Shown here: one piece after another, positions 1 through 31,713 of the stretch
Numbering within the stretch: position 1 is the stretch's first letter
Layout of the letters: the number at the start of each line of letters is the position of its first letter
Source of the DNA: a virus
Taxonomy: Duplodnaviria; Caudoviricetes
DNA length: 61,413 nt
IMG/VR virus record: IMGVR_UViG_3300005764_000019
Location: 1 to 61,413 of that record
Direction: 5' to 3' (one strand)
The notes under the pieces: model-generated
What the model was told of the DNA's origin: nothing
What the model saw: only the letters and a program-made list of their open reading frames with translations
The model's database searches: none
Program-made: the position numbers and the translations under genes

Positions 1-339
1 ATGAAGAAGGCCGAAGTCCTGGCCCATTGGGCGAAGCTGAAGCCGAACCAGCCGGTCAAGCCGGAGCCGGTGCCCTACAAGCACAAGGGATCAACGTATG
101 ACGAATGCGGTGTCCGCATCACCGGCAGCACCGAATTCATCGACAGCGTACTGAGCCGCCTGCAAGACCTGCTGGGCTACGAGGGCGGCGAGACGCGGTT
201 GCAGGTGGTTTATCAACCCGCCAAGGACCGCAAGACGCAGCAACCGACCGGCAGCTATAGCTGCTATGTGCAGGTCCACGAGCGCGGGCCTGAAGCCAAG
301 ATGATGCACGCCTTCGTGGCGGGCATCAAGGGCAAGTGA
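1..339 (+). CDS. hypothetical small phage protein (112 aa; may begin before the window)
   Basis: ORF with GC3-rich codons, first of the small-gene array. Confidence 0.75.
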   Translation: MKKAEVLAHWAKLKPNQPVKPEPVPYKHKGSTYDECGVRITGSTEFIDSVLSRLQDLLGYEGGETRLQVVYQPAKDRKTQQPTGSYSCYVQVHERGPEAKMMHAFVAGIKGK

Positions 340-345
340 GTCCAC

Positions 346-396
346 GGTACACGCCCGGTCATGGCCCGCACACCAAGCCGCAGCCGGGCGTGTACC
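346..396. repeat. 13-bp perfect inverted repeat
   Basis: GGTACACGCCCGG (346-358) and CCGGGCGTGTACC (384-396). Confidence 0.85.
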
Positions 397-418
397 ATAT
401 ACACAAGGGAGAGGATAA

Positions 419-652
419 GTGGGAATTCCAGCACAAGCGTTCGCGCGGGCCGTCTGCTCTGCGTTGCAGGACCGCGAGCTAACCGACGCCTTTGACCTGA
501 TCGTGGCCCGGTACTTCGAGGAGTACACCGACGCCACCGAGCTTGACGGCACGTTCTCCAGCGCCCTGGAAACGGTCTTCGACCTGTGCTTCCCTGGCGG
601 CGAGGATGAGCAGGGCCGGACGTTCGAGGAAGTCGCCACCAAGAAATCGTGA
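419..652 (+). CDS. hypothetical acidic protein (77 aa)
   Basis: GGGAGAGG SD then GTG; the TGA stop lies inside repeat copy 1. Confidence 0.7.
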   Translation: MGIPAQAFARAVCSALQDRELTDAFDLIVARYFEEYTDATELDGTFSSALETVFDLCFPGGEDEQGRTFEEVATKKS

Positions 653-676
653 ACGCTCGCCCGGTTCAGGGGCGGG
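643..676 (+). repeat. conserved intergenic element copy 1 (putative promoter or cassette boundary)
   Basis: GAAATCGT-GAAC-GCTCGCCCG-GTTCAGGGGCGGG. Confidence 0.85.
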
Positions 677-734
677 TAAGGATGAAGGGGGCGGCAGTCG
701 CCCCCAACACCCTGCAATACGGAGGGCATATACC

Positions 735-935
735 GTGGACAAGGAGATTTACACGCTCATCAGCCCGGAGGGCAAGGAGTTTGTCATCGGGGCGTACACG
801 AGCGAGGGCAAGGCCAAGGCGGCTTGCAAGCGCAAGTTCCCGGCGGACTGGCTGAGCCTGTGCGCCTACCCCCTGGCGACCCGCCCGCTTCGTGAGGGCG
901 AGACGGTGACGCCCTGGAGCCGGTGGGAGGGCTGA
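735..935 (+). CDS. hypothetical protein (66 aa)
   Basis: ACGGAGGG SD, GTG at 735 in frame with ORF 543..935. Confidence 0.75.
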   Translation: MDKEIYTLISPEGKEFVIGAYTSEGKAKAACKRKFPADWLSLCAYPLATRPLREGETVTPWSRWEG

Positions 936-936
936 G

Positions 937-970
937 AAAATCGAGAACGTTCGCCCGGTTCAGGTGCGGT
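937..970 (+). repeat. conserved intergenic element copy 2
   Basis: AAAATCGA-GAAC-GTTCGCCCG-GTTCAGGTGCGGT right after the stop codon. Confidence 0.85.
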
Positions 971-1032
971 AACAACAGAGGGGGCGGGCAAGTGACCCGC
1001 CCCCCATCCTGACCTATACGGAGGGTTTCGAC

Positions 1033-1317
1033 GTGGCCGACAAACAGACCAAGGAGCAGATCACCCAGGACTTCCGGGACGGGAAGATCGACGCCGACGA
1101 GATGATGCGGCGCATGAAGGAAGTGGACCGCAAGCCGCCTCGCTTCGAGGTTGCCGCCAAGTCCGGCTGGCTGTCGATCTACTTCGACGGACTGCGCTTC
1201 CCGGTTAGCCTGCCCTACGACTGTGCGGTGAGCCTGTTCTCCGACGAGATCGTGGCCGCAGCCCGCGCCTACTTGTCCGCGAACAAGGGCCGGTTCAAGA
1301 TCAAGGGCGCGAAGTAG
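1033..1317 (+). CDS. hypothetical protein (94 aa)
   Basis: GC hairpin, ACGGAGGG SD, GTG start. Confidence 0.8.
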   Translation: MADKQTKEQITQDFRDGKIDADEMMRRMKEVDRKPPRFEVAAKSGWLSIYFDGLRFPVSLPYDCAVSLFSDEIVAAARAYLSANKGRFKIKGAK

Positions 1318-1330
1318 ATCACCCTCCGTC

Positions 1331-1368
1331 CGCCCCCAGGTGCCCGCCGGCCTGGGGGCGTTTTATTT
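1331..1368 (+). terminator. intrinsic terminator
   Basis: CGCCCCCAGG/CCTGGGGGCG stem followed by TTTTATTT. Confidence 0.75.
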
Positions 1369-1397
1369 CGAGAACGCTTCGAGGTTTCAGGTGCGGT
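1364..1397 (+). repeat. conserved intergenic element copy 3
   Basis: TATTTCGA-GAAC-GCTTCGAGG-TTTCAGGTGCGGT. Confidence 0.85.
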
Positions 1398-1461
1398 GAG
1401 GATATAGCCCCGCGAGGATATAGCCCGGTGAGGATATAGCCCCGCGAGGATATAGCCCCGA
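1398..1461 (+). repeat. 4 x 16-bp tandem repeat GAGGATATAGCCCSGN
   Basis: Units start at 1398, 1414, 1430 and 1446. Confidence 0.95.
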
Positions 1462-1484
1462 CCCCATATACAGGAGAACCGACC

Positions 1485-1820
1485 GTGGCCAACACCAACC
1501 GCCAGGACGCCCAGCACTACCTGGAACGGCTGCTGCGCGACCTGTCCCTGTCCACCGGGGACCACTACAACGCCCGCGCCGTTGCCGAGCAGGCCAAGCT
1601 GTTCCTGAACGACTCCCAGGCCAACAAGGGCCTTCAGTCCAGCCACTTCTACGCAATCGCCAGCCTGGTCGAGCGCTGCGTCTACCGCGCCCTGAACATC
1701 GACACCGGCAAGACGCACATCGAGTGCCAGATGAACGTGCGCCGCAAGGTGGAGTCCTACGACGACTACCCCAGCATCGAAGACCTGCTGGAGCAGGAGA
1801 AAAATTGTGAACGCTCCTGA
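1485..1820 (+). CDS. hypothetical protein (111 aa)
   Basis: AGGAG SD, GTG start; the 3' end runs into repeat copy 4. Confidence 0.8.
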   Translation: MANTNRQDAQHYLERLLRDLSLSTGDHYNARAVAEQAKLFLNDSQANKGLQSSHFYAIASLVERCVYRALNIDTGKTHIECQMNVRRKVESYDDYPSIEDLLEQEKNCERS

Positions 1821-1834
1821 AGTTCAGGGGCGGT
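1801..1834 (+). repeat. conserved intergenic element copy 4
   Basis: AAAATTGT-GAAC-GCTCCTGAA-GTTCAGGGGCGGT. Confidence 0.85.
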
Positions 1835-1878
1835 AGGGACAGAGGCAGTCACCCACTCATCCCGAAGGGAGCTTTACT

Positions 1879-2301
1879 GTGAAGCCGATCAAGACCCTGA
1901 GCGCCGAGGTCCGCATCAACCGCCTGCACGCCGTCGTGCGTTACCAGGCCAACGCCAAGAACCCCAAGAAGGGGGGCACGGCGATTGAGGTGCGCTACGG
2001 CGTGCCGGGCCAGGCCAGCACCGTGCTGGGCACCGCCACCATCGGCGGGCGCTGGTCGCAGGACCAGGCCGTGCGGGAGTTCCGCCGCGACCCCCGGCGG
2101 TTCGGCTGGGACAAGCCGATCCCGGCGGACTCGGCGGACATCGGCATCCGCCTCGGCCCGGTGGCCGTGGCCGACTTCTCCGGGGCGTGCAACGTCAGCA
2201 CCCCCGACGAGGCGCTGGCCTTCTTCCGCCAGGCGTCGGGCCGCTTCGAGCGTGCCGAGCCGGGCTGGACCTTCGCGGTGGGCCTCAAACTGGTGGCGTG
2301 A
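1879..2301 (+). CDS. hypothetical protein (140 aa)
   Basis: AAGGGAG SD, GTG start, GC3 bias. Confidence 0.8.
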   Translation: MKPIKTLSAEVRINRLHAVVRYQANAKNPKKGGTAIEVRYGVPGQASTVLGTATIGGRWSQDQAVREFRRDPRRFGWDKPIPADSADIGIRLGPVAVADFSGACNVSTPDEALAFFRQASGRFERAEPGWTFAVGLKLVA

Positions 2302-2321
2302 GCCGCCGGCCCGCCTCGCCC

Positions 2322-2352
2322 AACCCCCAGGGATGACCCCTGGGGGTTTTTT
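2322..2352 (+). terminator. intrinsic terminator
   Basis: AACCCCCAGGG/CCCTGGGGGTT stem plus T-tract. Confidence 0.8.
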
Positions 2353-2425
2353 GTTGCGCCCAGGCCAAGCCAACACCAGGCCCGCCAGGGCGACCAGGCC
2401 AGGACGGCGGCAGGCCCGCCAGGGC

Positions 2426-2513
2426 CTCTAGGATCGCTCAGGACGGCTTGGGAAGGCTTCAGGCGGGGTCAGGGCTGCCCGATATATCCGAGGGCTTATA
2501 AGCGATCCTAGAG
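2426..2513. repeat. 13-bp inverted repeat after a CCAGG-rich patch
   Basis: CTCTAGGATCGCT (2426-2438) and AGCGATCCTAGAG (2501-2513). Confidence 0.8.
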
Positions 2514-2532
2514 CGTGCGGCAGATGGAGAAA

Positions 2533-2566
2533 TAAATCGAGAACGCCTGAAGGTTTCAGGTGCGGT
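2533..2566 (+). repeat. conserved intergenic element copy 5
   Basis: TAAATCGA-GAAC-GCCTGAAGG-TTTCAGGTGCGGT. Confidence 0.85.
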
Positions 2567-2612
2567 AAGGGCAGAGGACGGAAGACATCACTTCACTTCG
2601 GAGGGCTGAACG

Positions 2613-2819
2613 ATGAACGTTACGTTGGTGCCGGCGTATGGCAGGGACTACCGCTCGCAGAAGGAAGTCAAGGCAGCGTGGGACGCGGGCCAGGACTTCC
2701 AGATTTCGTGCTTCGGCCATCCCCACGATGGCCGCTACATCAACAAGCCCCAGGCGGCGGGGCAGTCCTACAACGTCCGCTACAAGCGGCTCACGCAAAT
2801 CTGCGTTGTGAAGGGCTGA
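2613..2819 (+). CDS. hypothetical protein (68 aa)
   Basis: CGGAGGG SD, ATG start. Confidence 0.8.
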   Translation: MNVTLVPAYGRDYRSQKEVKAAWDAGQDFQISCFGHPHDGRYINKPQAAGQSYNVRYKRLTQICVVKG

Positions 2820-2826
2820 GAGAGGC

Positions 2827-2911
2827 GCTGCGTCACGCAGGATAAAGGGCGATTTCCGCTCGCTCCATCAGGTCAGGAGTGACCCTTCCACGCCGTCCTG
2901 CGTGACGCAGC
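2827..2911. repeat. 16-bp inverted repeat enclosing nested stems
   Basis: GCTGCGTCACGCAGGA and TCCTGCGTGACGCAGC; inner AAGGG/CCCTT and CGCTCC/GGAGTG. Confidence 0.8.
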
Positions 2912-2966
2912 TTCTTTCATGCTACGGTTTCGATCCAACGTGTCCAGGCTTTAGGAGGGTTCTGCC

Positions 2967-3218
2967 ATGATGCACGGCGTCGAGATGCGCGACGGTGGGG
3001 AGTTCGACTTGCGACCCAAGGGCGACCGGCGCATCCCCCTGGAGCGGGTGTATATTTCGGTTGGCGAGGTTCTGATCGGCCAGGTGCGCTGCTACGTCAC
3101 CGAGAGCGACCTTGTGGAGCGTGCCGACATTGCCCTGGCGGACGGCCTGGGCATTCTGGAGGGCGTGCCCTGCGCCTACTTCCAGTTCCTCGACAGGAAG
3201 CGGGATGAGGAGTTGTAA
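2967..3218 (+). CDS. hypothetical protein (83 aa)
   Basis: AGGAGGG SD, ATG start. Confidence 0.75.
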   Translation: MMHGVEMRDGGEFDLRPKGDRRIPLERVYISVGEVLIGQVRCYVTESDLVERADIALADGLGILEGVPCAYFQFLDRKRDEEL

Positions 3219-3393
3219 AACAAGAAACAGCGAGGCGGTGTAAGCCGCCTCGCTGTACGCCTGTACATAGCCTGGGTGCCCAATACTGTACAGCAGTATA
3301 CTGAACAGGTGTACACACCCAGGGGCCTCTCCCCACGGTGTACAATGGTGATTTCCCAGCTTGCAACATTGTACTCCGGGGCCTGCGGCCCGC

Positions 3394-3440
3394 TACTGTG
3401 CGCATGTACACTACATCATGTAGTGTACATGCGCACAGTA
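3394..3440. repeat. 47-bp palindrome (23-bp perfect arms, 1-nt centre)
   Basis: TACTGTGCGCATGTACACTACAT-C-ATGTAGTGTACATGCGCACAGTA. Confidence 0.95.
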
Positions 3441-3476
3441 TATAGCCAGGGCGCGCCAGCGCGGCAAAAAGCAAAA

Positions 3477-3510
3477 TAAATCGAGAACGACCGCGCATTT
3501 CAGGGGCGGT
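3477..3510 (+). repeat. conserved intergenic element copy 6
   Basis: TAAATCGA-GAAC-GACCGCGCA-TTTCAGGGGCGGT. Confidence 0.85.
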
Positions 3511-3514
3511 CATG

Positions 3515-3772
3515 GTGTCGGAAATGACAAGCCCCTGACCGGGGCGGACGCCAAGAGGGTGTCGAGGGGATCGAAAGTGTCCTGCTGCGGCAGGACCGCC
3601 ACGAATAAGGGAGCGCTGTAGGTCGAAGCCTGGGCGTGCGCACGAGCCAGGAAGAGGACACAAGCGAGCCGAATAAGTGCAATCCCTGTGGTGCGACATC
3701 TGCGGCGAATGTCAGTCACCCCCTGACGGATGGGTGCGCGGCCTGCAAGCTGCCTAGGCGCTTGCGGGCCGA
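3515..3772 (+). ncRNA. putative structured RNA upstream of the tRNA-like element
   Basis: No convincing ORF; serial hairpins (GCCCC/GGGGC, GACGCC/GGTGTC, GTCCTGC/GCAGGAC, GGCCTGCAAGC/GCTTGCGGGCC) and two GAATAA motifs. Confidence 0.5.
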
Positions 3773-3776
3773 TTAT

Positions 3777-3850
3777 CCTGGTGTAGCTCAACGGGAGAGC
3801 AGAGCCGAGCGCGCTCGGCTTGGTTGTGGGTTCGACTCCCACCGCCGGGA
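3777..3850 (+). tRNA. tRNA-like element with non-canonical anticodon arm (no assignable anticodon)
   Basis: Acceptor CCTGGTG/CGCCGGG plus A73, U8A9, D arm GCTC-AACGGGA-GAGC, T arm GTGGG-TTCGACT-CCCAC; the anticodon arm is a 20-nt near-palindrome. Confidence 0.7.
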
Positions 3851-3878
3851 CTTTAGCCACTTTACGGAGGGTCAAGGT

Positions 3879-4082
3879 ATGCTGAAGGGCACTTACACGA
3901 CTCGGCAGGGGTTCGTTATCCACTGCGAGTACGCCACCGAGGCCGAAGCGCGGGCGCGGCTGGCCTACCTGGACGCGCAGGAGGAGCTTACGCAGCGCGT
4001 AGCCTGGACCGATAGCGGCAGCGTGCGCTTCAACTACAACCGCGAAGCGGAGGTTATCCGCAAGCTGCTGAAAATTTCGTGA
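3879..4082 (+). CDS. hypothetical protein (67 aa)
   Basis: ACGGAGGG SD, ATG at 3879; stop inside repeat copy 7. Confidence 0.8.
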   Translation: MLKGTYTTRQGFVIHCEYATEAEARARLAYLDAQEELTQRVAWTDSGSVRFNYNREAEVIRKLLKIS

Positions 4083-4106
4083 ACGCTTCCGCATTTCAGG
4101 GGCGGA
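4073..4106 (+). repeat. conserved intergenic element copy 7
   Basis: AATTTCGT-GAAC-GCTTCCGCA-TTTCAGGGGCGGA. Confidence 0.85.
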
Positions 4107-4158
4107 AGCTATATCGGGCGGGCCGAAGCCTGCCCCATCTCAGGAGCCAATACGACCG

Positions 4159-4401
4159 ATGGCTGCGACCTACAAAGCCTGCCAGCACTGCGACACGCCC
4201 ACAAGGCGGCGTTGCCGCGACTGCAAGCGGCCCGTCTGCATGGGCTGCGTGGTCCACGAGCAGTGCGAGAACTGCGTGGACGCCGAAACGTTCAACCAGA
4301 CCAGCCGTTACGCCCACGGCAACCACGACTTGCGCTGCTCGCACTACATCGGCCAGTGCGACCAGAGCTATCACGGGCGCTGCTCGCCCGACGTGGCGTG
4401 A
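4159..4401 (+). CDS. small Cys/His-rich putative zinc-binding protein
   Basis: Four CxxC pairs; AGGAG SD. Confidence 0.75.
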   Translation: MAATYKACQHCDTPTRRRCRDCKRPVCMGCVVHEQCENCVDAETFNQTSRYAHGNHDLRCSHYIGQCDQSYHGRCSPDVA

Positions 4402-4402
4402 G

Positions 4403-4436
4403 AAAATCGAGAACAACCGCCCCGTTCAGGGGCGGT
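4403..4436 (+). repeat. conserved intergenic element copy 8
   Basis: AAAATCGA-GAAC-AACCGCCCC-GTTCAGGGGCGGT(TGTTCT), 14-bp stem. Confidence 0.9.
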
Positions 4437-4478
4437 TGTTCTTAGGCAGCATCACTCACCTTTACGGAGGGTCAAGAC

Positions 4479-4781
4479 ATGGCTTCTTTCCGCACCATCA
4501 CCGCCCGTTTCGCTGGCCAGTGCCGCCGGTGCAAGGGCGCGATCAAGGCCGGCGAGCGCATCCGCTACGGCGGGCGCGGCTTGACGTACCACTTCGCCAA
4601 CGACTGCGCCGGCAAGCCGGCGGACGACGGCGAGGAGCGCGGCGAGGACAGCCGGGACGGCGGCGAGTTCGTGCCCTGCTGGAAGGGCGGGCGTTGTGAA
4701 GACTACCCGTGCTGCGGCTGTCACGGCCTGCACGGGCGCGACCTGTACACGCCGAGCGAGCCGCCCGACGTGGATTTCTGA
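4479..4781 (+). CDS. small Cys-rich protein (100 aa)
   Basis: CxxC...HxxxxC and a C-terminal GRCEDYPCCGC; leader CTTTACGGAGGGTCAAG identical to that of gene 3879. Confidence 0.8.
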   Translation: MASFRTITARFAGQCRRCKGAIKAGERIRYGGRGLTYHFANDCAGKPADDGEERGEDSRDGGEFVPCWKGGRCEDYPCCGCHGLHGRDLYTPSEPPDVDF

Positions 4782-4782
4782 G

Positions 4783-4816
4783 AAAATCGAGAACTACCGC
4801 CCCGTTCAGGGGCGGT
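4783..4816 (+). repeat. conserved intergenic element copy 9
   Basis: AAAATCGA-GAAC-TACCGCCCC-GTTCAGGGGCGGT(AGT), 11-bp stem. Confidence 0.9.
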
Positions 4817-4900
4817 AGTAGTGTCGGGAGCAACAACATTCGGCGTGCGGGGGCTGGCCCGGCCCCATGACTTCCCCTGGGAACCAATCGGAGATTTACG

Positions 4901-5242
4901 ATGCGTCACAAGGTTTCCATCACCGTCCCCTCGACTACGGGCGTCAACAAGCCCGCCCCGGAGCTTCACGCGGAGTACGTCGAGAAGGCTTGCCGCCTGC
5001 TGGCGGTCCTGTTCGGCGGGTTCACGGCCCTGGAAGGGCGAGGCGGCTGGGTGAGCGAGACGTTCGGCTTGGTGGTCGAGCCGATCACGGTTGTCTACGC
5101 GGCTTGCACCGAAGCCAAGCTGGAAGCCGGCTTGCCCAAGGTGCGGGCGCTGGCCGCAGAGATTGCGGAGGCGATGACTCAGGAATGCGTGGCCGTCGAA
5201 GTGGACGGCACGCTTGAGCTAGTGGCCGCAGAGGCGGCATGA
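4901..5242 (+). CDS. hypothetical protein, DUF3574/PII-like
   Basis: GGFT..EG.GGW...E......QECV pattern; GGAG SD. Confidence 0.65.
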   Translation: MRHKVSITVPSTTGVNKPAPELHAEYVEKACRLLAVLFGGFTALEGRGGWVSETFGLVVEPITVVYAACTEAKLEAGLPKVRALAAEIAEAMTQECVAVEVDGTLELVAAEAA

Positions 5243-5251
5243 GCCACAATG

Positions 5252-5284
5252 GGGATGCGCTGAGTAGCATACTCAGCGCATCCC
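5252..5284. repeat. 15-bp perfect hairpin closing the small-gene array
   Basis: GGGATGCGCTGAGTA-GCA-TACTCAGCGCATCCC. Confidence 0.9.
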
Positions 5285-5566
5285 AAATGCGCAAGGCGCA
5301 CATATGAGATGCGCATAGTGCGCAATTAACAACTGCGAAATACTTTTGAAAAAACCTGGCGCGACACCCCTGGGAGAGTACAATGTCATAGCCATGTCGG
5401 CCACTTTCTTTCCTTTCTCCCAAAGATAAAAACCCCGGCCCAGGTTTTCAGGGACTCCATCTCAAGTTTGACACCCCTTCGTTTCCAAAAAAATCGCGGC
5501 GGCAACTTTTTCGCCGGCCATGTAAGTATTTGCCGCCCCTGGACCTACATAGGGGAAAGGGGGTAC

Positions 5567-6739
5567 ATGGCCAATCCGGCATATTTCGACCGCCGCAAGC
5601 AAACGTCCACAACCACGGGCACCGGGTCATTCACCCTGGCCGTGCCGTCCGGCTCCTGGTCCAAGCTGAACACCGCCGGTGCCGCAACCATCACCATCTC
5701 TTACTGCATCGCCCACCAGACGGCCAGTGATTGGGAAACCGGCGTGGGCACGATTGATTCGACCAGCACGACGTTGACGAGGAGCGCGACGGACGGCAGC
5801 GCCGGGGCCAGCACGCTGGTGAACTTTTCAGGTGGCACCAAGGACGTGTTCATCACCCCCATCGCCGCCAACTTGCCCCGCGTCAGCCCGTTGATTTGTC
5901 AGGGAAGACTGACGGTGTTGAGCGGTGCGGCGGCGGGCGAGGCGTCGTCGGTCAGCACCATTTACTTCACCCCGTACCTCGGCAGCCAAATCGCCGTCCC
6001 GGAGACATCCTACGGGGCGGCACAGTGGAAACTGTTCGAGTTCACGGAAATGAGCCTGGCCCTTGCCGGTTTGACCGCCGGCAACTGCTATGATGTATAC
6101 ATTTACGACAACGCCGGCACTCTGACGTTGGGCACGCAGGCGTGGGCCAACAACACGACCCGAAGCGTGGCCGTCACCAACATCGACGGCATCCCGATGT
6201 TGACGGTGAACCAGCGTTATTTGGGAACGTTTTACGCCCAGACCGCCACCACCACGTCGGACACGGGCCGTTATAGGTTCTTGTGGAATTATTACAATCA
6301 AGTGCCCCGGACGCTGGCGAATTTCCCCAATGTCGGCAACTGGAGCAGCCCCGGCACGTTGGGCTGGCGTGCCCAGAACGCCGACGCCACCAAGGCACGG
6401 GCGGTGGAGTTCATCTGGGGCCTGGGGCCTTTGAAGCCCGTGAGCGTGCGGGCCACCTGCTACTGCAACAACCCCACCGCCGGCACCTACGCCCAATTGG
6501 GCCTGACGCTGGACCCTTCCGGCGGCAACTGGATTCCGAGCCAGGTGGACTGCAACGTGGCGGAATTTTTCGGCGGCATCGCCAACTACCTGTCCGCCGA
6601 ATTCAATAAAACCGTGGCCGTGGGTTATCATTATCTCCAGCCGACCGAGGCCATCCAGGTCGGCACCGGGACGGTCACTTGGTTCGATTACGTCGTCAAC
6701 CGCTTCACGGCTGGCATTAGCGGGACGATGTGGGCCTAG
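5567..6739 (+). CDS. tail fibre/receptor-binding-like protein, paralogue 1
   Basis: DRRKQTSTTTGTG...WETGVGT N-domain; GRLT...YFTPY...RYLGT...LWNYYN core shared with four downstream genes; start at MANP. Confidence 0.7.
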   Translation: MANPAYFDRRKQTSTTTGTGSFTLAVPSGSWSKLNTAGAATITISYCIAHQTASDWETGVGTIDSTSTTLTRSATDGSAGASTLVNFSGGTKDVFITPIAANLPRVSPLICQGRLTVLSGAAAGEASSVSTIYFTPYLGSQIAVPETSYGAAQWKLFEFTEMSLALAGLTAGNCYDVYIYDNAGTLTLGTQAWANNTTRSVAVTNIDGIPMLTVNQRYLGTFYAQTATTTSDTGRYRFLWNYYNQVPRTLANFPNVGNWSSPGTLGWRAQNADATKARAVEFIWGLGPLKPVSVRATCYCNNPTAGTYAQLGLTLDPSGGNWIPSQVDCNVAEFFGGIANYLSAEFNKTVAVGYHYLQPTEAIQVGTGTVTWFDYVVNRFTAGISGTMWA

Positions 6740-7008
6740 TCCTCGTGGAGCCAGACCTTCCCCCACTCCTCCCACTCGGCGGGCCAGTTGCCGTGTTGGT
6801 TCTCCGGCCCGGTCAGGGTAATCTTGGCCATCCCGCCGGGCAGGACGCCGCCCCGGCAACCGTAACCGCCCGTGGCCCCGACCAGGACCGTGCTTTCCCC
6901 CGCCTTGGCCTGTTCCTTGGCCCGTTCCCACGCCGCCTTCTCCACGATGAACGTGGGGTAAATCGTGGCCGGCACGGTGACGCCCAGGGTGATGAAGTCG
7001 TCTTGCAT
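6736..7008 (-). CDS. hypothetical protein (90 aa)
   Basis: AAGGAGG SD; fills the gap between neighbours. Confidence 0.7.
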   Translation of the reverse strand: MQDDFITLGVTVPATIYPTFIVEKAAWERAKEQAKAGESTVLVGATGGYGCRGGVLPGGMAKITLTGPENQHGNWPAEWEEWGKVWLHED

Positions 7009-7044
7009 GACTTCCTCCTTTCTACCAATGTAAACGTTCGGGCG

Positions 7045-7719
7045 TTACAACTTTCGGGCCACGCAGATTTGGTGTAAATTGTTCCCGCCGGCCATGAAGT
7101 TCTCCTCCAGGGTGATGGCAGAACGTATCTCCTGGGCAATGTCTTGCAATTGTCCCCACGAATAAAAGGCCCTGCCGTAGCAGGTGGGGTGGTAGACGCC
7201 GGGGCATTCGAGCCGGTAGTCATCGGCCAGGAAGACGGAGAAGGTGGCCTCGGCCCCGCGCTGGATGGCGGGGCCGAATTTTTTCAACAGGCGGCGGCAT
7301 TCCTCGATGGACGTATGGGTGAACACGCTCAGCAGCAGGATCGCGTCCGCGTTTTGCAGGGCCTCGCTGTCCACGAGTGAGTCGGTCAGGCCGAAGTGCA
7401 TCCGCCGGTCGTGTCCCCAATTCAGCATGGCGTTGGCCACGCCCTGGCCGACCCCGCCCGGCGGCTCGATGCCGTAATAACGGAAGTTCTGGAAGCGGCG
7501 GGACAGAAAGTCCGCCGCCCTGCCGTCGCCGCAGCCGTAGTCCACGAGGCAGAACGGTTCTTTTAATTTGTGGGCGATTGGTTCCAAGAAGGAGGCCACG
7601 CAGAGAGAACTGGCCGGCTCGTCGGGGGTGCCGTAGACGTAGCCGACGTGGTAAGATTCATTGGCGCTGGGGTAAGGCGTCTCCTTCCAGCGTTGCCAGG
7701 CGGCGCTCTCGTAGTCCAT
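7045..7719 (-). CDS. class I SAM-dependent methyltransferase
   Basis: LVDYGCGDG motif I, YYGIE, LLSVFTH. Confidence 0.8.
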   Translation of the reverse strand: MDYESAAWQRWKETPYPSANESYHVGYVYGTPDEPASSLCVASFLEPIAHKLKEPFCLVDYGCGDGRAADFLSRRFQNFRYYGIEPPGGVGQGVANAMLNWGHDRRMHFGLTDSLVDSEALQNADAILLLSVFTHTSIEECRRLLKKFGPAIQRGAEATFSVFLADDYRLECPGVYHPTCYGRAFYSWGQLQDIAQEIRSAITLEENFMAGGNNLHQICVARKL

Positions 7720-7738
7720 GACCTATATAGTTCCAGCC

Positions 7739-8605
7739 ATGATAATCACCGCCGTCAGCGTCGTCCGCAACGAGGAAGACATCATCGAGGCTTGGGTAAG
7801 GCATAACCGCCCGCAGGTGGAGCGCTTTATCATCACCCTGCACCGTTGCACCGACGCGACCCCTTTTATTTTGCAACAACTTCAAGAAGAAGGGTTTGAC
7901 CTGGAGATAACAGAAAGTAATGTCATCGGCCACCGCCAGGCGGAAACGATTACCGCGCTCATTCACGAAGCCGCCTTGGGCCGTCCCGATTACATCTTGC
8001 CGTTGGACGGGGACGAGTTTATATGCGGCGACCTGCGCCGGATAAACGCTCATTGGGCCTGGACGGTCTTGTTGCGTTGGCGTCATTATGTGCCCCAGGG
8101 GGACGTGATCGACCCGCTCAAACAGATCACCGGGCGTCTGCCGGAGACGGACGACGCCCACAAAGTCCTGATCCCAGGGTGGTACGGGTTGAGCGAGCGT
8201 TGTCATGTGGGCGAGGGGTCGCACGAGTTATACATCGACGCCACTCCGGCACCATGTTGTTTCACCGACCAGGCGTGGCTCGCCCACTTTCCGGTACGAT
8301 CCGGCCAACAAATCATGAAGAAGGCGTTCACGGGCTGGTTGGGGAAGCTGGCCAACGATCTGGAGCCTGGGGGAAAAGATTCTCCGGCCTTTTATTGCGC
8401 CTGGAAGTCGCTTTTCGACGCGGCCAAAACCGGGGAGATGGACGTGGCGATGGCCACCCGCCGTTACAACTTACTCGGCCCGCTCATCGAGGAACCGTTG
8501 CCGCATCAGGAGTTAAGATACACGCCGCAGTGTTCCAAGACGGCGTGGGAAGTGCTGGCGGACATGGCCGAGGAGATGGCCGGGGAAGTAAGGAGGTTGC
8601 GTTAG
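7739..8605 (+). CDS. glycosyltransferase family 2-like (Glyco_tranf_2_4 type)
   Basis: VRNEEDIIEAWVRH, CTDAT, PLDGDEF (DxD), AHFPVRS. Confidence 0.8.
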   Translation: MIITAVSVVRNEEDIIEAWVRHNRPQVERFIITLHRCTDATPFILQQLQEEGFDLEITESNVIGHRQAETITALIHEAALGRPDYILPLDGDEFICGDLRRINAHWAWTVLLRWRHYVPQGDVIDPLKQITGRLPETDDAHKVLIPGWYGLSERCHVGEGSHELYIDATPAPCCFTDQAWLAHFPVRSGQQIMKKAFTGWLGKLANDLEPGGKDSPAFYCAWKSLFDAAKTGEMDVAMATRRYNLLGPLIEEPLPHQELRYTPQCSKTAWEVLADMAEEMAGEVRRLR

Positions 8606-8865
8606 TCCTTCTCCTCGAAGGTGATGCGGACGAGGATGCCGCTTTTTTCCTCGATGTGGAACCGATAGTCGAGGCGGGTGCCGTCGTGGACGAAGTATGG
8701 CACACACTTCGGGTGGGTCTGGAAGTAGTTCAGGACCGCCGCCCGCATGTCCTTGAGGGTCTGGTCGAGTTGGCGACTGCTCCTGCCCTGGAAGGTGGAC
8801 AGCAGGTAGTTGATGTCCTTGATCGCCTGTTTCTTGATAATGCGTGCGAGCCAGAAATTGACCAT
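8602..8865 (-). CDS. hypothetical protein (87 aa)
   Basis: 3' part of ORF 8602..9045 that does not overlap the next gene. Confidence 0.55.
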   Translation of the reverse strand: MVNFWLARIIKKQAIKDINYLLSTFQGRSSRQLDQTLKDMRAAVLNYFQTHPKCVPYFVHDGTRLDYRFHIEEKSGILVRITFEEKD

Positions 8866-8904
8866 GATATATGATAGTGCTGCGCAAACAATTATCGGGC
8901 GCGA

Positions 8905-8910
8905 TAAATA
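8905..8910 (+). promoter_or_regulatory. T4-late-like promoter box TA(A/C/T)ATA (representative copy)
   Basis: Also at 5546, 7724, 10090, 11227, 12343, 13457, 22790, 32665, 39241, 41842, 42665, 43390, 43973 and 55886, and on the minus strand at 27622, 28650 and 37739; often 4-5 nt before the start codon. Confidence 0.7.
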
Positions 8911-8914
8911 AGGT

Positions 8915-10084
8915 ATGAATTTCTGGACGGACAGCACGGGCCGAATCCTTTCGCCCTTCACGGCCCCGTGGTCATTGAGGCCGGGCGGGCGGTTGACGTT
9001 GACGAGCGGGCTGCCGGTGACGACCAGCGACGTGACCAACGCCACGACGGTTTATTACACCCCCTACGTCTCCAACGTCATTACCCTGTGGAACGGCAAC
9101 GCCTGGCAGCCGATTGCCTTCAATGAAGTGTCGTTGTTGTTACAGTCGATCTTCCAGACGCGGCTGACGACCACGGGCGTCACCAACGTGCCGGTGAATT
9201 CGCCCCTCATCAAAAGCATCCCCTCCACCACCGGCATCCAGGTGGGGGACATGGTGGACGAACACAATTCGGTCTTCGGTGGCGGCTGTTACGTCATTTC
9301 GGTGGACAGCGCCACGCAGGTGACCACCAACACGTCCAGCAACGTCGGCGGCACCAATACTTTTTATTTTAACAACCCCTGTTATGACATTTTCGGCTAC
9401 CTCGACACCAATAACGGCTTGATGCTGACGACGGTGGGATGGGCCAGTCGCACGACGCGGGCGACGGCGCTGGCCCTGACGGACGGCCTCCTCACGCTGT
9501 CCACCGACAAAACCCGCTTATACTTGGGCACCATTTATCTGACGAGCGCCTACGCAGGGAAGTTTGCTACCAACTCCTACTTCACCGCCGACTCCATGCT
9601 CAACCGCCTGGTGTGGAACAATTACAACCGCGTGGTTCGCCCGATGTTCTACCAGCCCTCGGTGGGAAGCTGGGCTTACGGTGCGGCGGCATGGCGTTTT
9701 GCCAACGGCTACAACGGGATGGCGTCCGGCGGGGCCACTTCGCCCCTGGCGGCGGTGAACTTCGTGTGCGGCCAGAGCGAGGACTCGGCATCGGCGGAAG
9801 TGTTGTGTCCGATGAACTCCTCGGCGGGCACGGCGGGCAACGTGGCCCTCGCCATCGACACGTCGCTGTCCGCCCCGGCCCCGACATCGGTGGATTCCGG
9901 GAACGAAGTGTCCACCGGGGAGGGGGGGATTATCGGCGTCTCCGACGCCAGTTGCAACCGCCCGTTCGCCGCCGGCTACCACTACATCGGCTGGCTGGAA
10001 TATTGCCGGGCGGGCACCCTCACCATGTACGGCCTGGCCGGGCCGGGTAACCTTGGTTGCATGTGGGGATCAATCCGTGCCTAG
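8915..10084 (+). CDS. tail fibre/receptor-binding-like protein, paralogue 2
   Basis: MNFWTD...PGGRLTLTSG...YYTPY...DKTRLYLGT. Confidence 0.75.
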   Translation: MNFWTDSTGRILSPFTAPWSLRPGGRLTLTSGLPVTTSDVTNATTVYYTPYVSNVITLWNGNAWQPIAFNEVSLLLQSIFQTRLTTTGVTNVPVNSPLIKSIPSTTGIQVGDMVDEHNSVFGGGCYVISVDSATQVTTNTSSNVGGTNTFYFNNPCYDIFGYLDTNNGLMLTTVGWASRTTRATALALTDGLLTLSTDKTRLYLGTIYLTSAYAGKFATNSYFTADSMLNRLVWNNYNRVVRPMFYQPSVGSWAYGAAAWRFANGYNGMASGGATSPLAAVNFVCGQSEDSASAEVLCPMNSSAGTAGNVALAIDTSLSAPAPTSVDSGNEVSTGEGGIIGVSDASCNRPFAAGYHYIGWLEYCRAGTLTMYGLAGPGNLGCMWGSIRA

Positions 10085-10099
10085 CCCCCTACATAAAGT

Positions 10100-11212
10100 A
10101 TGAACTTCTGGAACGACAGTCAGGGCCACGTTCTGAGTCCGTTGAATGCGCCTTGGGGTTACCCGCCCGGTGGCCGGCTGACGCTTACCACCGCCACCCC
10201 GGTGACGAGCAGCGACGTGTCCGGCGTCAACATGATTTACTACACCCCCTACACGTCCAACCGCATCTCCCTGTGGAACGGCGTTTATTGGGTGCCGCTC
10301 ACGTTCACCGAACTGTCGATGGACCTGCACGGCTTCGCCATCAGCCAACGCCCCACGGTCACCGGCACGACGACGGCCAGCAGCCCGGTCATCACAGGCA
10401 TCACGTCCACCAGCAATCTGGCCATCGGGGACTTGCTCGATCTGGGCAACAACTTCCTGGGGGACGCGGCCATTGTTTCGGTGGACAGCGCCAGCCAGGT
10501 GACCATGAGCAAGAACTGCCTCGCCGGTGGCGGCGGCAGCAACACACTTTATTTCTACTGCCCGCTCTACGACTTCTTCGCGTCCCTGGACGCCAACCAG
10601 AACGTGGTCCTGACCACCCAACCCTGGACCAACGCCACCACGCGGGCCACCAACGTAATTTTTACGGACGGGCTTTACACGCTGGCCAGCGACAAAACCA
10701 AGTTATATTTGGGGACCATCCAACTCAACCAGTACCATCTGGCCGTGGCCTACGCGACCGACGCGGCGGCGAGGCGGGGCGTGTGGAACGCTTACAACCG
10801 CGTCCGCCGGCAACTGCTGTTCCTGCACCCAACCGGCTCGTGGGCGTATAGCGGTGGCTACCGGCAGGCGGGCGGCAACCAGACGGCGATGCTGTGGTGG
10901 GTGAACGGCATGGTCGAGGAGTCCATGTCCCTGGAGGTCATTTGCTGCATCAACAGCCCGCAAAATACGGCGGGAAACGTCAGCATCGGCCTCGACAACA
11001 TCAAGACGCCCAGCGCCGACCAGTCCAACGAAGTTTCTGCGGGCGTTGCCGGCGGTATGATCGGCATATCCCGTGCTACTTACAACCACTACGTCGCCCC
11101 CGGCGGACACTACGCCTCCTGGCTGGAAAACGTCCGCGCCCCCTCGGTGACCTTTTATGGCAGTTCCGGGGCTGCTTACACCAGTTCCCTCCGGGGTGTT
11201 ATGCAGGGATAA
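10100..11212 (+). CDS. tail fibre/receptor-binding-like protein, paralogue 3
   Basis: Same core motifs as paralogue 2. Confidence 0.75.
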   Translation: MNFWNDSQGHVLSPLNAPWGYPPGGRLTLTTATPVTSSDVSGVNMIYYTPYTSNRISLWNGVYWVPLTFTELSMDLHGFAISQRPTVTGTTTASSPVITGITSTSNLAIGDLLDLGNNFLGDAAIVSVDSASQVTMSKNCLAGGGGSNTLYFYCPLYDFFASLDANQNVVLTTQPWTNATTRATNVIFTDGLYTLASDKTKLYLGTIQLNQYHLAVAYATDAAARRGVWNAYNRVRRQLLFLHPTGSWAYSGGYRQAGGNQTAMLWWVNGMVEESMSLEVICCINSPQNTAGNVSIGLDNIKTPSADQSNEVSAGVAGGMIGISRATYNHYVAPGGHYASWLENVRAPSVTFYGSSGAAYTSSLRGVMQG

Positions 11213-11236
11213 TTTCCTTGCGCCACTAAATAAGGA

Positions 11237-12319
11237 ATGATCTTCTGGAACGACGCCTGGCAGCGAGTCAATTCGTACTTTACGGTGCCGCGCGGCAACC
11301 CGCCCGGCGGCAGGTTGACGCTGACCACCGGGCAGCCGGTGACCTACCTCGATACTACGGCAGCGACGGTGTATTACACGCCTTACGCCTCCAACTACAT
11401 CGCCCTCTGGAACGGAGTTTACTGGCAGAGTTTGGTGTTTCTCGAAACCGCCTTCGCCTGTAGCGCCCTGGCCAGCATTATCCTGTCCTCCACCAGCAAC
11501 ACGATCTCCGGCTCGCCGCAGATTAGCGGCATCCCCTCCACGTCGGCGTTGTCCGTGGGTAATTTGGTGGACTGCGCCAACTTCCCCAACGGCACCACCA
11601 TCACGTCCATCGTCAGTTCGACCCAGGTGAACTGTTCGGCCAACGCCACGGCAACCAGCACGATTGCCATGCGCTTTTATTATTCCCTCTACGACATTTT
11701 CGGCAGCCTCGACCCGAACAACGGCCTGGTGCTTAGCAGCCTGGGCTGGACCAACCTGACGGCCAGGGCGACGGCGCTTGCGCTGACGGACGGGCACTAC
11801 ACGCTCTCGACCGACAAGACCAAGTTATATTTGGGGACGGTGATGTTGACCAAGGCCCAGCAGGGGGTGCTGTTTCAGGCCACGGACAGCGCGACCTGGC
11901 GGGGCGTGTGGAACTACTACAACCGGGTGCCCCGGCAACTGTTTTTTTCGTCGGGCGGCGGTTGGACGTGGGCCAGTGCGTCCTGGCGGCAGGCAGGCGG
12001 CAACGCGGCGGCGCAGGTGGCGTGGGTGATGGGGGCGAGCGAGGAGCCGGTGTACCTTCAAGTCGTGAACCAGATGAACTCCAACATCGGCACCGCCGGC
12101 AACGTCGGCATCGGCATCGACAACCTCACGAACGGGGTGGCGGACGCCAACAATGAAACGTCGGTCGGCTCCAGTTCGGGCGGCATCATCGGGGTCACCA
12201 TGTCGGTCTACCAACGGTACGTCCCGGCGGGCTACCACTACGGGGCCTGGCTGGAGTACGCCCGCGCCGGCACCATGACGGTGGGCAACGGTGTTCTACG
12301 AGGGGCGGTTCAAGGTTAG
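11237..12319 (+). CDS. tail fibre/receptor-binding-like protein, paralogue 4
   Basis: Same core motifs as paralogue 2. Confidence 0.75.
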   Translation: MIFWNDAWQRVNSYFTVPRGNPPGGRLTLTTGQPVTYLDTTAATVYYTPYASNYIALWNGVYWQSLVFLETAFACSALASIILSSTSNTISGSPQISGIPSTSALSVGNLVDCANFPNGTTITSIVSSTQVNCSANATATSTIAMRFYYSLYDIFGSLDPNNGLVLSSLGWTNLTARATALALTDGHYTLSTDKTKLYLGTVMLTKAQQGVLFQATDSATWRGVWNYYNRVPRQLFFSSGGGWTWASASWRQAGGNAAAQVAWVMGASEEPVYLQVVNQMNSNIGTAGNVGIGIDNLTNGVADANNETSVGSSSGGIIGVTMSVYQRYVPAGYHYGAWLEYARAGTMTVGNGVLRGAVQG

Positions 12320-12352
12320 CCGCAAAATGCGGCGACCGCTCATAAATAAGCC

Positions 12353-24769: not shown

Positions 24770-24783
24770 AATTGGTCCTTTCG

Positions 24784-31678: not shown

Positions 31679-31713
31679 GGTAAACTGCCCGGCGAGAAAA
31701 ATGGAAAACGGCG

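What the first reader, a model, noticed from the sequence alone, without database searches (positions are those of the whole stretch)
643..5242. Cassette-like array of small genes, each headed by a conserved non-sigma70 34-bp element
Seen: nine copies of AAATCGWGAAC-N9-KTTCAGGKGCGG(T) with fixed spacing (GAAC at 651, 945, 1372, 1809, 2541, 3485, 4081, 4411, 4791). Six abut or overlap the stop codon of the previous ORF. Eight are followed after ~45-90 nt (often a GC hairpin, then a GGAG-type SD) by an unrelated 66-140 aa ORF. The ninth heads an RNA. I saw no copy after 4.9 kb. Known: T4-type PeSL cassettes (promoter, stem-loop, SD) shuffle early genes; ECF promoters carry an AAC -35; integron attC sites overlap stop codons. 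Inference: a modular early/host-takeover array with a dedicated promoter class (GAAC...17 nt...GCGGT), which may also serve as a recombination joint for swapping single-gene cassettes.
Basis: partly seen in the sequence, partly recalled or inferred. Interest (0 to 1): 0.88.

Follow-up and report, generated by a model that had tools for sequence, protein, structure and literature searches.

The report
Repeated promoter modules heading small phage genes
A fragment of a very large soil phage carries nine near-identical 34-base signals, most likely promoters of an unusual class, each set in front of a small unrelated gene, much like the shuffling promoter cassettes known from T4-type phages.

Summary
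Nine copies of AAATCGWGAAC-N9-KTTCAGGKGCGG lie at the stated places, all on the + strand, against 0.02 expected by chance. No other copy lies in the 61.4 kb.

The window is a fragment, about 12% by CheckV's estimate, of a jumbo myovirus-like phage.

The same two blocks occur in four other soil-phage contigs. All 7 of those copies are intergenic and point at unrelated genes.

Over the 16 copies the blocks have sigma-type geometry: GWGAAC, then 16-17 nt, then KGCGGT, then a pyrimidine-purine step 6 nt on. Two copies sit directly behind intrinsic terminators. In 5 of the 9 own copies the variable spacer forms a hairpin, in varying registers.

This anatomy matches the T4-type PeSL promoter/stem-loop cassettes (PMC2839356), but the boxes are not sigma-70 consensus.

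Best reading (0.6): composite promoter modules of a dedicated class in a hypervariable region. The factor that reads them was not found.

Neither the window nor a 343 kb relative encodes an ECF sigma, an RNA polymerase subunit or a tyrosine recombinase. The relative has only a T4 gp55-like late sigma.

Early timing is not shown. Cassette exchange at the motif is suggested, not proven.

The parts
644..677 (+). Motif copy 1. The stop codon TGA of ORF 419-652 lies inside it (650-652).
938..971 (+). Motif copy 2, starting 2 nt after the stop of ORF 735-935.
1365..1398 (+). Motif copy 3. It sits directly behind the intrinsic terminator 1331-1360, whose T-tract runs into the motif's A/T-rich edge. 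The spacer forms no hairpin.
1802..1835 (+). Motif copy 4. The last 19 nt of ORF 1485-1820 overlap it, with the stop codon in the N9 spacer. The spacer forms a hairpin with TTCAGGGGCG.
2534..2567 (+). Motif copy 5, after 232 nt of non-coding DNA that holds terminator 2322-2348. The spacer forms a hairpin with TTCAGG.
3478..3511 (+). Motif copy 6, after 259 nt of non-coding DNA with TGTAC boxes and a 23-nt palindrome. It heads a 362-nt leader that contains a tRNA-like element. The left flank and the motif are homologous to L020; the right flank is not.
4074..4107 (+). Motif copy 7. The stop TGA of ORF 3879-4082 lies inside it. An 8-bp hairpin pairs the spacer with GCGG plus the flank.
4404..4437 (+). 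Motif copy 8, starting 2 nt after the stop of ORF 4159-4401. A 14-bp perfect hairpin (4410-4442) spans both blocks.
4784..4817 (+). Motif copy 9, starting 2 nt after the stop of ORF 4479-4781. It has an 11-bp hairpin.
1..652 (+). ORF 1-339 (112 aa; 40% identical homologue in G006) and ORF 419-652 (77 aa). They lie upstream of the first copy with no motif before them, so they are presumably transcribed from beyond the contig start.
735..5242 (+). The cassette ORFs: 735-935 (66 aa), 1033-1317 (94), 1485-1820 (111), 1879-2301 (140), 2613-2819 (68), 2967-3218 (83, no motif of its own), 3879-4082 (67), 4159-4401 (80, Cys-rich), 4479-4781 (100, Cys-rich), 4901-5242 (113, phrog_3543 / DUF3574-like fold). 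They are mutually unrelated, with GC3 of 0.8-0.96.
1331..1360 (+). Intrinsic-terminator-like hairpin plus T-tract, ending the unit of ORF 1033-1317.
2322..2348 (+). Intrinsic-terminator-like hairpin plus T-tract, after ORF 1879-2301.
3517..3850 (+). Leader RNA predicted to start at copy 6: 260 nt of weakly structured RNA, then the tRNA-family element 3777-3850 with an abnormal anticodon arm.
1394..1457 (+). Four tandem 16-nt repeats (GAGGATATAGCCCCGC) in the leader between copy 3 and ORF 1485. The same unit is repeated in relative L020.

Best explanation
Each copy is most likely a composite promoter module of a dedicated, non-sigma-70 class.

Proposed layout. An A/T-rich stretch often holds the stop codon of the gene before. 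A -35-like block TCGWGAACG follows, then a free 8-9 nt spacer, then a long -10-like block KTTCAGGKGCGGT(A). Transcription is predicted to start about 6 nt later, near motif position 40. A short leader follows, often with a GC hairpin, then a GGAG-type ribosome site and one small gene.

Hairpins. In about half of the window's copies the free spacer has evolved to pair with the G-rich block. That hairpin could attenuate or stabilise transcripts arriving from upstream. Its register varies, so it is an add-on and not what the polymerase reads.

Setting. The modules stand in a hypervariable region of a jumbo soil phage. Because they are the only sequence shared between otherwise unrelated cassettes, they probably also act as patches of homology where cassettes are gained, lost or swapped, as shown for T4-type PeSLs.

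Shown: the repeats, their conservation across phages, their geometry, their position relative to terminators and genes, the hairpin statistics, and homology that breaks at the motif.

Inferred: promoter activity, the start site, attenuation, recombination, and the factor that reads the module. A sigma-type factor working with host RNA polymerase is most likely, because the nearest relative has no RNA polymerase genes in 343 kb.
For: 1. Nine copies against 0.02 expected, all on one strand and all co-directional with the genes.

2. An exact-pattern scan of metagenome contigs gave 14 loci. Five of them (L015, L018, L020, L023, L025) carry copies between GC3-supported genes. L015 and L025 are 99.8% identical, so these are four distinct contigs holding 7 distinct copies. 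All 7 of 7 point at the downstream gene, and those genes are unrelated to the window's: an AAA ATPase, a DUF2201 protein, a phrog_8203 protein and zinc-finger ORFs.

3. Over the 16 copies, positions 4-12 and 21-32 are almost invariant while the spacer is free. Further on, T33 occurs in 11 of 16, a purine at position 35 in 16 of 16, and a pyrimidine-purine step at 39-40 in 12 of 16. With +1 at position 40, KGCGGT falls at -12 to -7 and GWGAAC at -34 to -29, with a 16-17 nt spacer. That is sigma-70-family geometry.

4. Copy 1365 and the L023 copy sit immediately behind an intrinsic terminator whose T-tract merges with the motif. Copies 2534 and 3478 follow 232 and 259 nt of non-coding DNA. L020 has two copies in tandem, 67 nt apart, before one large gene.

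5. No sigma-70-like promoter lies on the + strand of 1-6000. Yet the same phages have a separate sigma-70-like class, CTTTACAAC-N14-TAnnAT.

6. The spacer hairpin is significant in 5 of 9 own copies, in three different registers. PMC2839356 (section 13 read) describes the same for PeSLs: the upstream stop codon in an AT-rich stretch, the boxes, a stem-loop between or over the boxes, a Shine-Dalgarno site and an ORFan.

7. Window versus L020: conserved blocks lie to the left of copy 3478/9117, the motif itself is 90.6% identical (29 of 32), and nothing aligns to its right.

8. Soil contigs laid on the window share only the motif and leader and have other flanks (loose ends at 1802/1845, 4072/4105 and 4780/4866). 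One 1,440-nt contig jumps from 324 to 1159, and has 503 letters where the window has 192.
Against: - No transcription start is mapped, and no RNA run holds the sequence.
- No factor was found. There is no sigma region 2 or 4_2 match and no T7-type polymerase match in the window. The control for the T7-type family found nothing in any control genome, so that blank is inconclusive.
- The 343 kb relative G006 has only a gp55-like late sigma and no RNA_pol_Rpb1_2 match.
- G006 has no copy of the motif at all in 343 kb, so the class is not used genome-wide in that relative.
- About 21 invariant positions is more than sigma factors usually need. TTCAGG lies where a spacer would be.
- The -10-like block is neither TATAAT nor the ECF CGT type.
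- In L020 and L015 the motif lies downstream of a sigma-70-like promoter and would be transcribed, which also fits an RNA-level or operator role.
- The hairpin is absent from 4 of 9 own copies (2 of those are borderline) and from 7 of 7 relatives' copies.
- The 'go-back' joints can be explained by paralogy between motif-and-leader copies, so they do not show circles.
Confidence: 0.6

Rival explanations
1. RNA-level element. The array is one or a few long transcripts, and the motif is read as RNA. It would be a cleavage, stability or antitermination site that turns a polycistronic early RNA into single-gene messages. This is comparable to the RNase III sites between T7 early genes (recalled, no call) or to nut/put sites.
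For: - 6 of 9 copies lie directly at gene ends inside a run of co-directional genes.
- In L020 and L015 the motif is downstream of a sigma-70-like promoter, so it is transcribed.
- Hairpins involving the motif occur in 5 of 9 own copies.
- The phage carries RNA-handling genes: RNA ligase-like, PNK-like and CCA-adding-enzyme-like.
Against: - Copies 1365 and L023 lie directly behind intrinsic terminators. The L023 copy lies upstream of the sigma-70-like promoter, so little RNA would carry it.
- The conserved part is two single-stranded-looking blocks. The hairpin varies in register and is absent from 7 of 7 relatives' copies.
- The block spacing and the pyrimidine-purine step fit a DNA promoter.
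- No Rfam family matches the motif.
Confidence: 0.12
2. Operator-type site. The 34-bp element is the asymmetric binding site of a phage regulator that shuts off or gates every cassette. This would resemble the 'stoperators' of cluster A mycobacteriophages, which sit at gene ends in one orientation (recalled, no call). It could coexist with a promoter.
For: - About 21 invariant positions in 16 copies across four or more phages, which is more than a sigma factor usually constrains.
- Strict orientation (16 of 16), placement at stop codons, and restriction to one region.
Against: - No DNA-binding regulator was identified in the window.
- The element has almost no dyad symmetry (only GAAC/GTTC).
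- Its position at a fixed distance before a Shine-Dalgarno site and start codon, and behind terminators, is what a start signal needs, not a block to elongation.
Confidence: 0.12
3. Promoter for a phage RNA polymerase. The polymerase would be single-subunit or virion-delivered, as in N4 or T7, and encoded in the unsampled part of the genome. Host polymerase with a sigma-type factor would then not be involved.
For: - The motif is long and almost invariant, as for phage-polymerase promoters.
- Hairpins occur in some copies, which recalls N4 early promoters (recalled).
- Only about 12% of the genome is in hand.
Against: - The 3948-aa ORF is a membrane-helix-rich repeat protein in tape-measure position, with no polymerase match in Pfam, PHROGs or the PDB sequences.
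- No D-x-D-G-D motif occurs in any large ORF.
- The relative G006 (343 kb, 69% complete) has no RNA_pol_Rpb1_2 match (control positive) and no PF00940 match (control silent, so inconclusive). It does have a gp55-like late sigma, which implies use of the host core enzyme.
- The bipartite layout with a free 9-nt spacer, and the shifting hairpin register, do not fit T7- or N4-type promoters.
Confidence: 0.1
4. Site-specific recombination site. The motifs would be attC-like joints of an integron-like cassette array, cut and joined by a dedicated recombinase.
For: - Single-gene cassettes in one orientation, with the repeat at or over the stop codon.
- An AAC...GTT inverted pair.
- Cassette-sized differences between strains.
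Against: - No tyrosine recombinase in the window or in 343 kb of G006, with a positive control.
- The element is 34 bp, against the roughly 57-141 bp recalled for attC.
- GTTCAGG does not fit the recalled core GTTRRRY.
- Pairing across the element is absent in many copies.
- Each cassette has its own promoter-like geometry, whereas integron cassettes are promoterless (recalled).
Confidence: 0.03

Closest known systems
PeSL (promoter-early stem-loop) cassettes of T4-type phages. Arbiol et al. 2010, PMC2839356 (abstract and section 13 read). Comeau et al. 2014, PMC4122927 (abstract read).
   Same: - A repeated intergenic module concentrated in a hyperplastic region before small ORFans.
- The stop codon of the upstream gene lies in the A/T-rich stretch before the -35 box.
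- A stem-loop sits at variable places between or over the boxes, often G-tract/C-tract.
- A Shine-Dalgarno site and start codon lie close behind.
- The module is the only homology between otherwise unrelated neighbours.
- The nearest relative has a T4 gp55-like late sigma.
   Different: - The boxes here are GWGAAC and KGCGGT, not the sigma-70 consensus. A separate sigma-70-like class exists in the same phages.
- The block between the spacer and the -10 (TTCAGG) is invariant.
- Hairpins are absent from many copies.
- Promoter activity, terminator activity and mini-circles are untested.
- The phage is not shown to be a T4-like virus.
ECF (group 4) sigma-factor promoters. Gaballa et al. 2017, PMC5758882 (passages read).
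   Same: AAC in the -35 block, close adherence to consensus, and a bipartite layout with a spacer at the upper end of the stated 14-17 bp range.
   Different: - The -10-like block is GCGGT(A), not a CGT type, and the spacer to CGG is 18 nt.
- The 6 bases upstream of the -10 are invariant.
- No ECF sigma gene is present in the window or in 343 kb of the relative.
T4 middle promoters (MotA box plus sigma-70 -10) standing in tandem with early promoters. PMC2988021 seen in a search listing only; details recalled.
   Same: A phage-specific upstream box replaces the -35. The same genes are served by a sigma-70-type promoter and by the phage-specific one, as seen in L020, L015 and L023.
   Different: The -10 here is not TAnnnT. 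No MotA or AsiA homologue was looked for or seen.
SPO1 host-takeover module (recalled, no call).
   Same: A dense run of small genes, each or nearly each with its own strong promoter and ribosome site, at one end of a large phage genome.
   Different: SPO1 uses host sigma-A consensus promoters. Timing and function are unknown here.
Stoperators of cluster A mycobacteriophages (recalled, no call).
   Same: Asymmetric repeats at gene ends, all in one orientation relative to transcription.
   Different: Stoperators are 13-14 bp and spread over the whole genome. Here the element is 34 bp, has promoter geometry and is confined to 4.2 kb.

Membership tests
PeSL cassettes (T4-type) | Repeated intergenic motif concentrated in a variable region, immediately upstream of small ORFs of unknown function | tested here: met
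   9 copies in 4.2 kb and none in the other 57 kb. The ORFs have no Pfam family above cut-off and no paralogues.
PeSL cassettes (T4-type) | Boxes identical to the sigma-70 consensus (early promoter) | tested here: not met
   No sigma-70-like site on the + strand of 1-6000. The blocks are GWGAAC and KGCGGT.
PeSL cassettes (T4-type) | Stable stem-loop at variable positions relative to the boxes | tested here: inconclusive
   Significant against spacer shuffles in 5 of 9 own copies (2 more borderline) and in 0 of 7 relatives' copies. Three registers are used.
PeSL cassettes (T4-type) | Insertions, deletions and replacements between related phages bounded by the motif | tested here: inconclusive
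   Homology with L020 ends at the motif. Loose ends fall at motif edges, and co-occurring contigs differ by cassette-sized amounts. The contig sequences themselves could not be read.
PeSL cassettes (T4-type) | Promoter and terminator activity; mini-circles | not testable with these tools
   No RNA run holds the sequence. The go-back joints are explained by paralogous copies.
ECF sigma promoter | AAC in the -35 region | tested here: met
   GAAC is invariant in 16 of 16 copies. The criterion comes from PMC5758882.
ECF sigma promoter | Group-specific -10, typically CGT-type, 14-17 bp after the -35 | tested here: not met
   The -10-like block is GCGGT(A). CGG starts 18 nt after AAC.
ECF sigma promoter | A cognate ECF sigma gene (regions 2 and 4), usually autoregulated | tested here: not met
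   No Sigma70_r2 or r4_2 match in the window. The only r2 match in G006 is a 180-aa gp55-like late sigma. Both records are incomplete, and a host sigma cannot be tested.
Integron attC | Imperfect inverted repeats with core GTTRRRY and a nearby tyrosine recombinase (features recalled) | tested here: not met
   GTTCAGG does not fit the core. The element is 34 bp. No PF00589 match in the window or in G006, with a positive control.
N4-type virion-polymerase hairpin promoter | A giant virion RNA polymerase, and a hairpin of fixed register in the promoter (features recalled) | tested here: not met
   The 3948-aa ORF has no polymerase match and is rich in membrane helices and repeats. The hairpin register varies or the hairpin is absent.

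The most novel reading that the evidence does not exclude
The module is read by a transcription device not yet described for phages. One option is a sigma-like or polymerase-retargeting factor, virion-delivered or made very early, that is encoded in the unsampled part of these roughly half-megabase soil phages. The other is a host stress (ECF-type) sigma that the infection itself switches on. Because the same 21 invariant bases are kept across phages that share no other DNA, the module would be a common currency that lets unrelated jumbo phages exchange ready-to-express gene cassettes.
Probability: 0.15. Interest if true: 0.75.

Novelty: new variant of a known kind. Interest (0 to 1): 0.45.

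Why it matters
If the modules are promoters, they define a second, very stringent promoter class in an uncultivated clade of jumbo soil phages. This class is confined to the region where genes turn over fastest.

That gives a simple sequence tag for three uses:
- finding the accessory or takeover gene pool of these phages in metagenomes;
- asking which factor reads the tag;
- testing whether T4-type PeSL shuffling is a general way for large phages to trade ready-to-express genes.

The practical value is limited for now, because the host is unknown and no culture exists.

Tried and rejected
N4-like reading. I first took the 3948-aa ORF for an N4-type virion polymerase. I rejected this: there is no Pfam, PHROG or PDB-sequence match to any polymerase, and the protein is a membrane-helix-rich repeat protein placed before the baseplate genes.

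False relatives. Ten IMG/VR contigs share protein 24155-24886 with the window. Of the four fetched whole (G001, G003, G005, G008), three share only that protein and one shares two. None of the ten carries the motif in series; two have one weak 3-mismatch hit each. Only G006 is a true relative.

Exact-pattern scans.
- Viral contigs: 2 loci with the full pattern, both inside a scaffold-like gene of an unrelated phage.
- Viral contigs, relaxed pattern: 9 loci, none with a series of copies. L061 has a single intergenic look-alike that I did not follow.
- Genome contigs: 13 single hits, mostly inside long open frames. I take these as chance level; my own rough estimate is about 9 expected, and this is an estimate, not a computed control. 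They give no sign of a host promoter class.

Other blanks.
- blastn of 1-6000 against the phage records found no match.
- tblastn of the first 1000 aa of the giant ORF found one weak hit.
- A helicase query in viral contigs found no relative.
- Rfam found nothing for the motif.
- No RNA holder is listed among the sequencing runs.
- The go-back joints (3393>2534, 2577>1413, 4359>1396, 1004>731) were considered as circles or rearrangements. I set them aside because paralogous motif-and-leader copies explain them.
- Pfam scans of 20 ORFs from the motif-bearing contigs L020, L023 and L025 found no sigma factor or polymerase.
- The Atlas search gave no usable hit for ORF 1879-2301, and only families of unknown function for ORF 4901-5242.

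Not used: structure prediction, fold search, complex prediction, the search for homologous proteins, the search of protein representatives. Supplementary files of the PeSL papers were not seen; they hold the reporter data cited in section 13.

Full report
WHAT IS THERE

The nine copies of AAATCGWGAAC-N9-KTTCAGGKGCGG are real. They start at 644, 938, 1365, 1802, 2534, 3478, 4074, 4404 and 4784, all on the + strand. Six fit the consensus exactly and three differ by 1-2 bases in the A/T-rich edge. Chance would give 0.02. A weight matrix built from them finds no further copy above 8 bits in the 61,413 bases.

Six copies abut or overlap the stop codon of the gene before. Eight are followed 41-86 nt after the motif end by a GGAG-type ribosome site and an ORF of 66-140 aa. 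The ORFs are unrelated to each other and match no Pfam family above cut-off. One has a DUF3574-like fold that is common in phages.

Copy 3478 heads 260 nt without a convincing ORF and with only weak structure (z = -1.84). After that come a tRNA-family element (Rfam 45 bits, abnormal anticodon arm) and a 67-aa ORF.

WHAT THE WINDOW IS

The window is the whole held record, but it is a fragment. It ends inside a baseplate-J-like ORF, and CheckV puts it at 12% complete. It carries:
- a myovirus-type tail and baseplate block, including a 3948-aa membrane-helix-rich repeat protein in tape-measure position and a gp5/VgrG-type spike;
- a ClpP-like prohead protease, a UvrD helicase, and RNA ligase-, PNK- and CCA-enzyme-like genes;
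- five fibre-like paralogues.

My first idea was that the giant ORF is an N4-type virion polymerase and that the repeats are N4-type hairpin promoters. That failed: the ORF has no polymerase match.

The one true relative in IMG/VR is G006, 343 kb and 69% complete. It is collinear with window 17.5-61.4 kb at 50-92% amino-acid identity, and its contig stops just where the window's variable left part begins.

RELATIVES OF THE MOTIF

Exact-pattern scans gave only chance hits in viral contigs and in genome contigs (13 single hits, mostly inside long open frames).

In metagenome contigs, 5 of 14 loci carry copies between GC3-supported genes. L015 and L025 are the same phage, so these are four distinct contigs: L015/L025, L018, L020 and L023. 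Together they hold 7 distinct copies.

All 7 copies point at the downstream gene. Those genes are unrelated to the window's: an AAA ATPase, a DUF2201 protein, a phrog_8203 protein and zinc-finger ORFs.

L020 is a real relative of the window. It shares a fibre gene at about 55-60% identity, the 16-nt GGATATAGC repeats and the CATTGTACTCC boxes. The other contigs share nothing with the window but the motif.

GEOMETRY

Over the 16 copies, positions 4-12 (TCGWGAACG) and 21-32 (KTTCAGGKGCGG) are almost invariant and the 8-9 nt between them are free. Downstream, T33 occurs in 11 of 16, position 35 is a purine in 16 of 16, and positions 39-40 are pyrimidine-purine in 12 of 16.

If +1 is position 40, then KGCGGT is at -12 to -7 and GWGAAC at -34 to -29, with a 16-17 nt spacer. 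That is the layout of a sigma-70-family promoter, although neither box matches the sigma-70 consensus.

Copy 1365 and the L023 copy lie directly behind an intrinsic terminator whose T-tract merges with the motif. L020 has two copies in tandem before one gene. These placements suit a start signal on DNA better than an RNA element.

The same phages also have a sigma-70-like class, CTTTACAAC-N14-TAnnAT. It occurs in the window at 31679 and 43372 on the - strand, and in L020, L015, L023 and G006. In three relatives it stands beside the motif before the same gene: upstream of it in L020 and L015, downstream of it in L023.

So these phages have two promoter classes. The motif class could be early or middle, and its timing is open.

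HAIRPINS

In 5 of 9 window copies (1802, 2534, 4074, 4404, 4784) the free spacer pairs with the conserved G-rich block or its flank better than 95% or more of spacer shuffles. Two more copies are borderline, and none of the 7 copies in relatives passes. The register differs between copies.

This is what Arbiol et al. describe for PeSLs. [quoted passage not shown] Comeau et al. call them composite terminator/promoter sequences that mediate indels in hyperplastic regions (PMC4122927, abstract).

WHO READS IT

This is not resolved.
- The window has no sigma region 2 or 4_2 match. It has no PF00940 match either, but the control for that family was silent.
- G006 has no RNA_pol_Rpb1_2 match, with a positive control, and no PF00940 match.
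- G006 has one 180-aa ORF with sigma region 2 only, whose best PHROG is 'late sigma transcription factor'.

A gp55-like late sigma implies that the host core enzyme is used. I therefore favour a sigma-type or sigma-retargeting factor over a phage polymerase.

ECF promoters share the AAC and the strict consensus (PMC5758882, passages). But the -10 type and spacing do not fit, and no ECF sigma gene is in hand. G006 has no copy of the motif in 343 kb, so the class is local, not genome-wide.

CASSETTE EXCHANGE

- Window versus L020: conserved blocks lie left of copy 3478/9117, the motif is 90.6% identical (29 of 32), and nothing aligns to the right.
- Soil contigs from four runs were laid on 1-8000. 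Two of the runs may be the source sample. Some contigs share only the motif and leader, with other flanks on both sides (loose ends at 1802/1845, 4072/4105, 4780/4866).
- One 1,440-nt contig, present in two runs, jumps from 324 to 1159 and has 503 letters where the window has 192.
- The listed pieces covering 1-5.3 kb are all short, 1,440 nt at most, although the runs hold contigs of up to 81 kb.

This fits a hyperplastic region with gain and loss of cassettes near the motif. I could not read those contigs, so the exact boundaries are not shown. The go-back joints are explained by paralogous copies. No tyrosine recombinase is present, so any exchange would be by homology, as in PeSLs, and not of the integron type.

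VERDICT

It is unproven on timing, on the factor and on recombination.

I file the finding as working like PeSLs but not as a member of that family, because the defining sigma-70 boxes are not met. It is a new variant of a known kind.

Noticed in passing
window 3777-3850 (with 36013-37704 -, 30907-31629 -, 27644-28267 -): A tRNA-family element (Rfam 45 bits) whose anticodon arm has a 10-nt loop region that can zip up to a CGCG tetraloop. ARAGORN assigns no amino acid. The same phage encodes CCA-adding-enzyme-like, RNA-ligase-like and PNK-like proteins. A soil variant differs in the anticodon arm but keeps the T arm (loose end at 3801).
   Followed up: partly
window 1394-1457; L020 6660-6770: A 16-nt tandem repeat (GAGGATATAGCCCCGC, 4 copies) lies in the leader of ORF 1485. 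The same unit occurs 6-7 times in relative L020, in a different context. It may be a protein-binding array.
   Followed up: no
window 3240-3445; L020 8560-9030: A non-coding stretch with TGTAC-rich boxes and a perfect 23-nt palindrome (3394-3440). The box CAACATTGTACTCCGG is shared with L020, which has three copies. Its function is unknown; an origin or an operator region is possible.
   Followed up: partly
window 31679 (-) and 43372 (-); L020 ~9065; L015; L023 10398; G006 (6 sites): A second, sigma-70-like promoter class with an extended -35 (CTTTACAAC-N14-TAnnAT), conserved across these phages. In three relatives it stands next to the GAAC/GCGGT module before the same gene.
   Followed up: partly
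window 43988-55834: A 3948-aa ORF in tape-measure position, made of several families of internal repeats and many predicted membrane helices. It has no family match. Its homologue in G006 is 51% identical.
   Followed up: partly
window 5468-13444 and 13469-17133: Five fibre-like paralogues (28-47% identical to each other), followed by two paralogous large proteins (773 and 504 aa). G006 has three tandem copies of the first fibre type. This is a diversified receptor-binding set.
   Followed up: no
G006 126.6-130 kb (L072): A cluster of tRNA genes on the - strand lies next to the homologue of window ORF 1-339.
   Followed up: no
L025 4397-7596 (same as L015): An AAA (MoxR-like) ATPase gene and a DUF2201 metallopeptidase-like gene stand side by side, each with its own copy of the module.
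   Followed up: no
window 2820-2918: A 23-nt inverted repeat (87% complementary, 53 nt apart) lies between ORF 2613-2819 and ORF 2967-3218. That ORF is the only array ORF without a module of its own.
   Followed up: no
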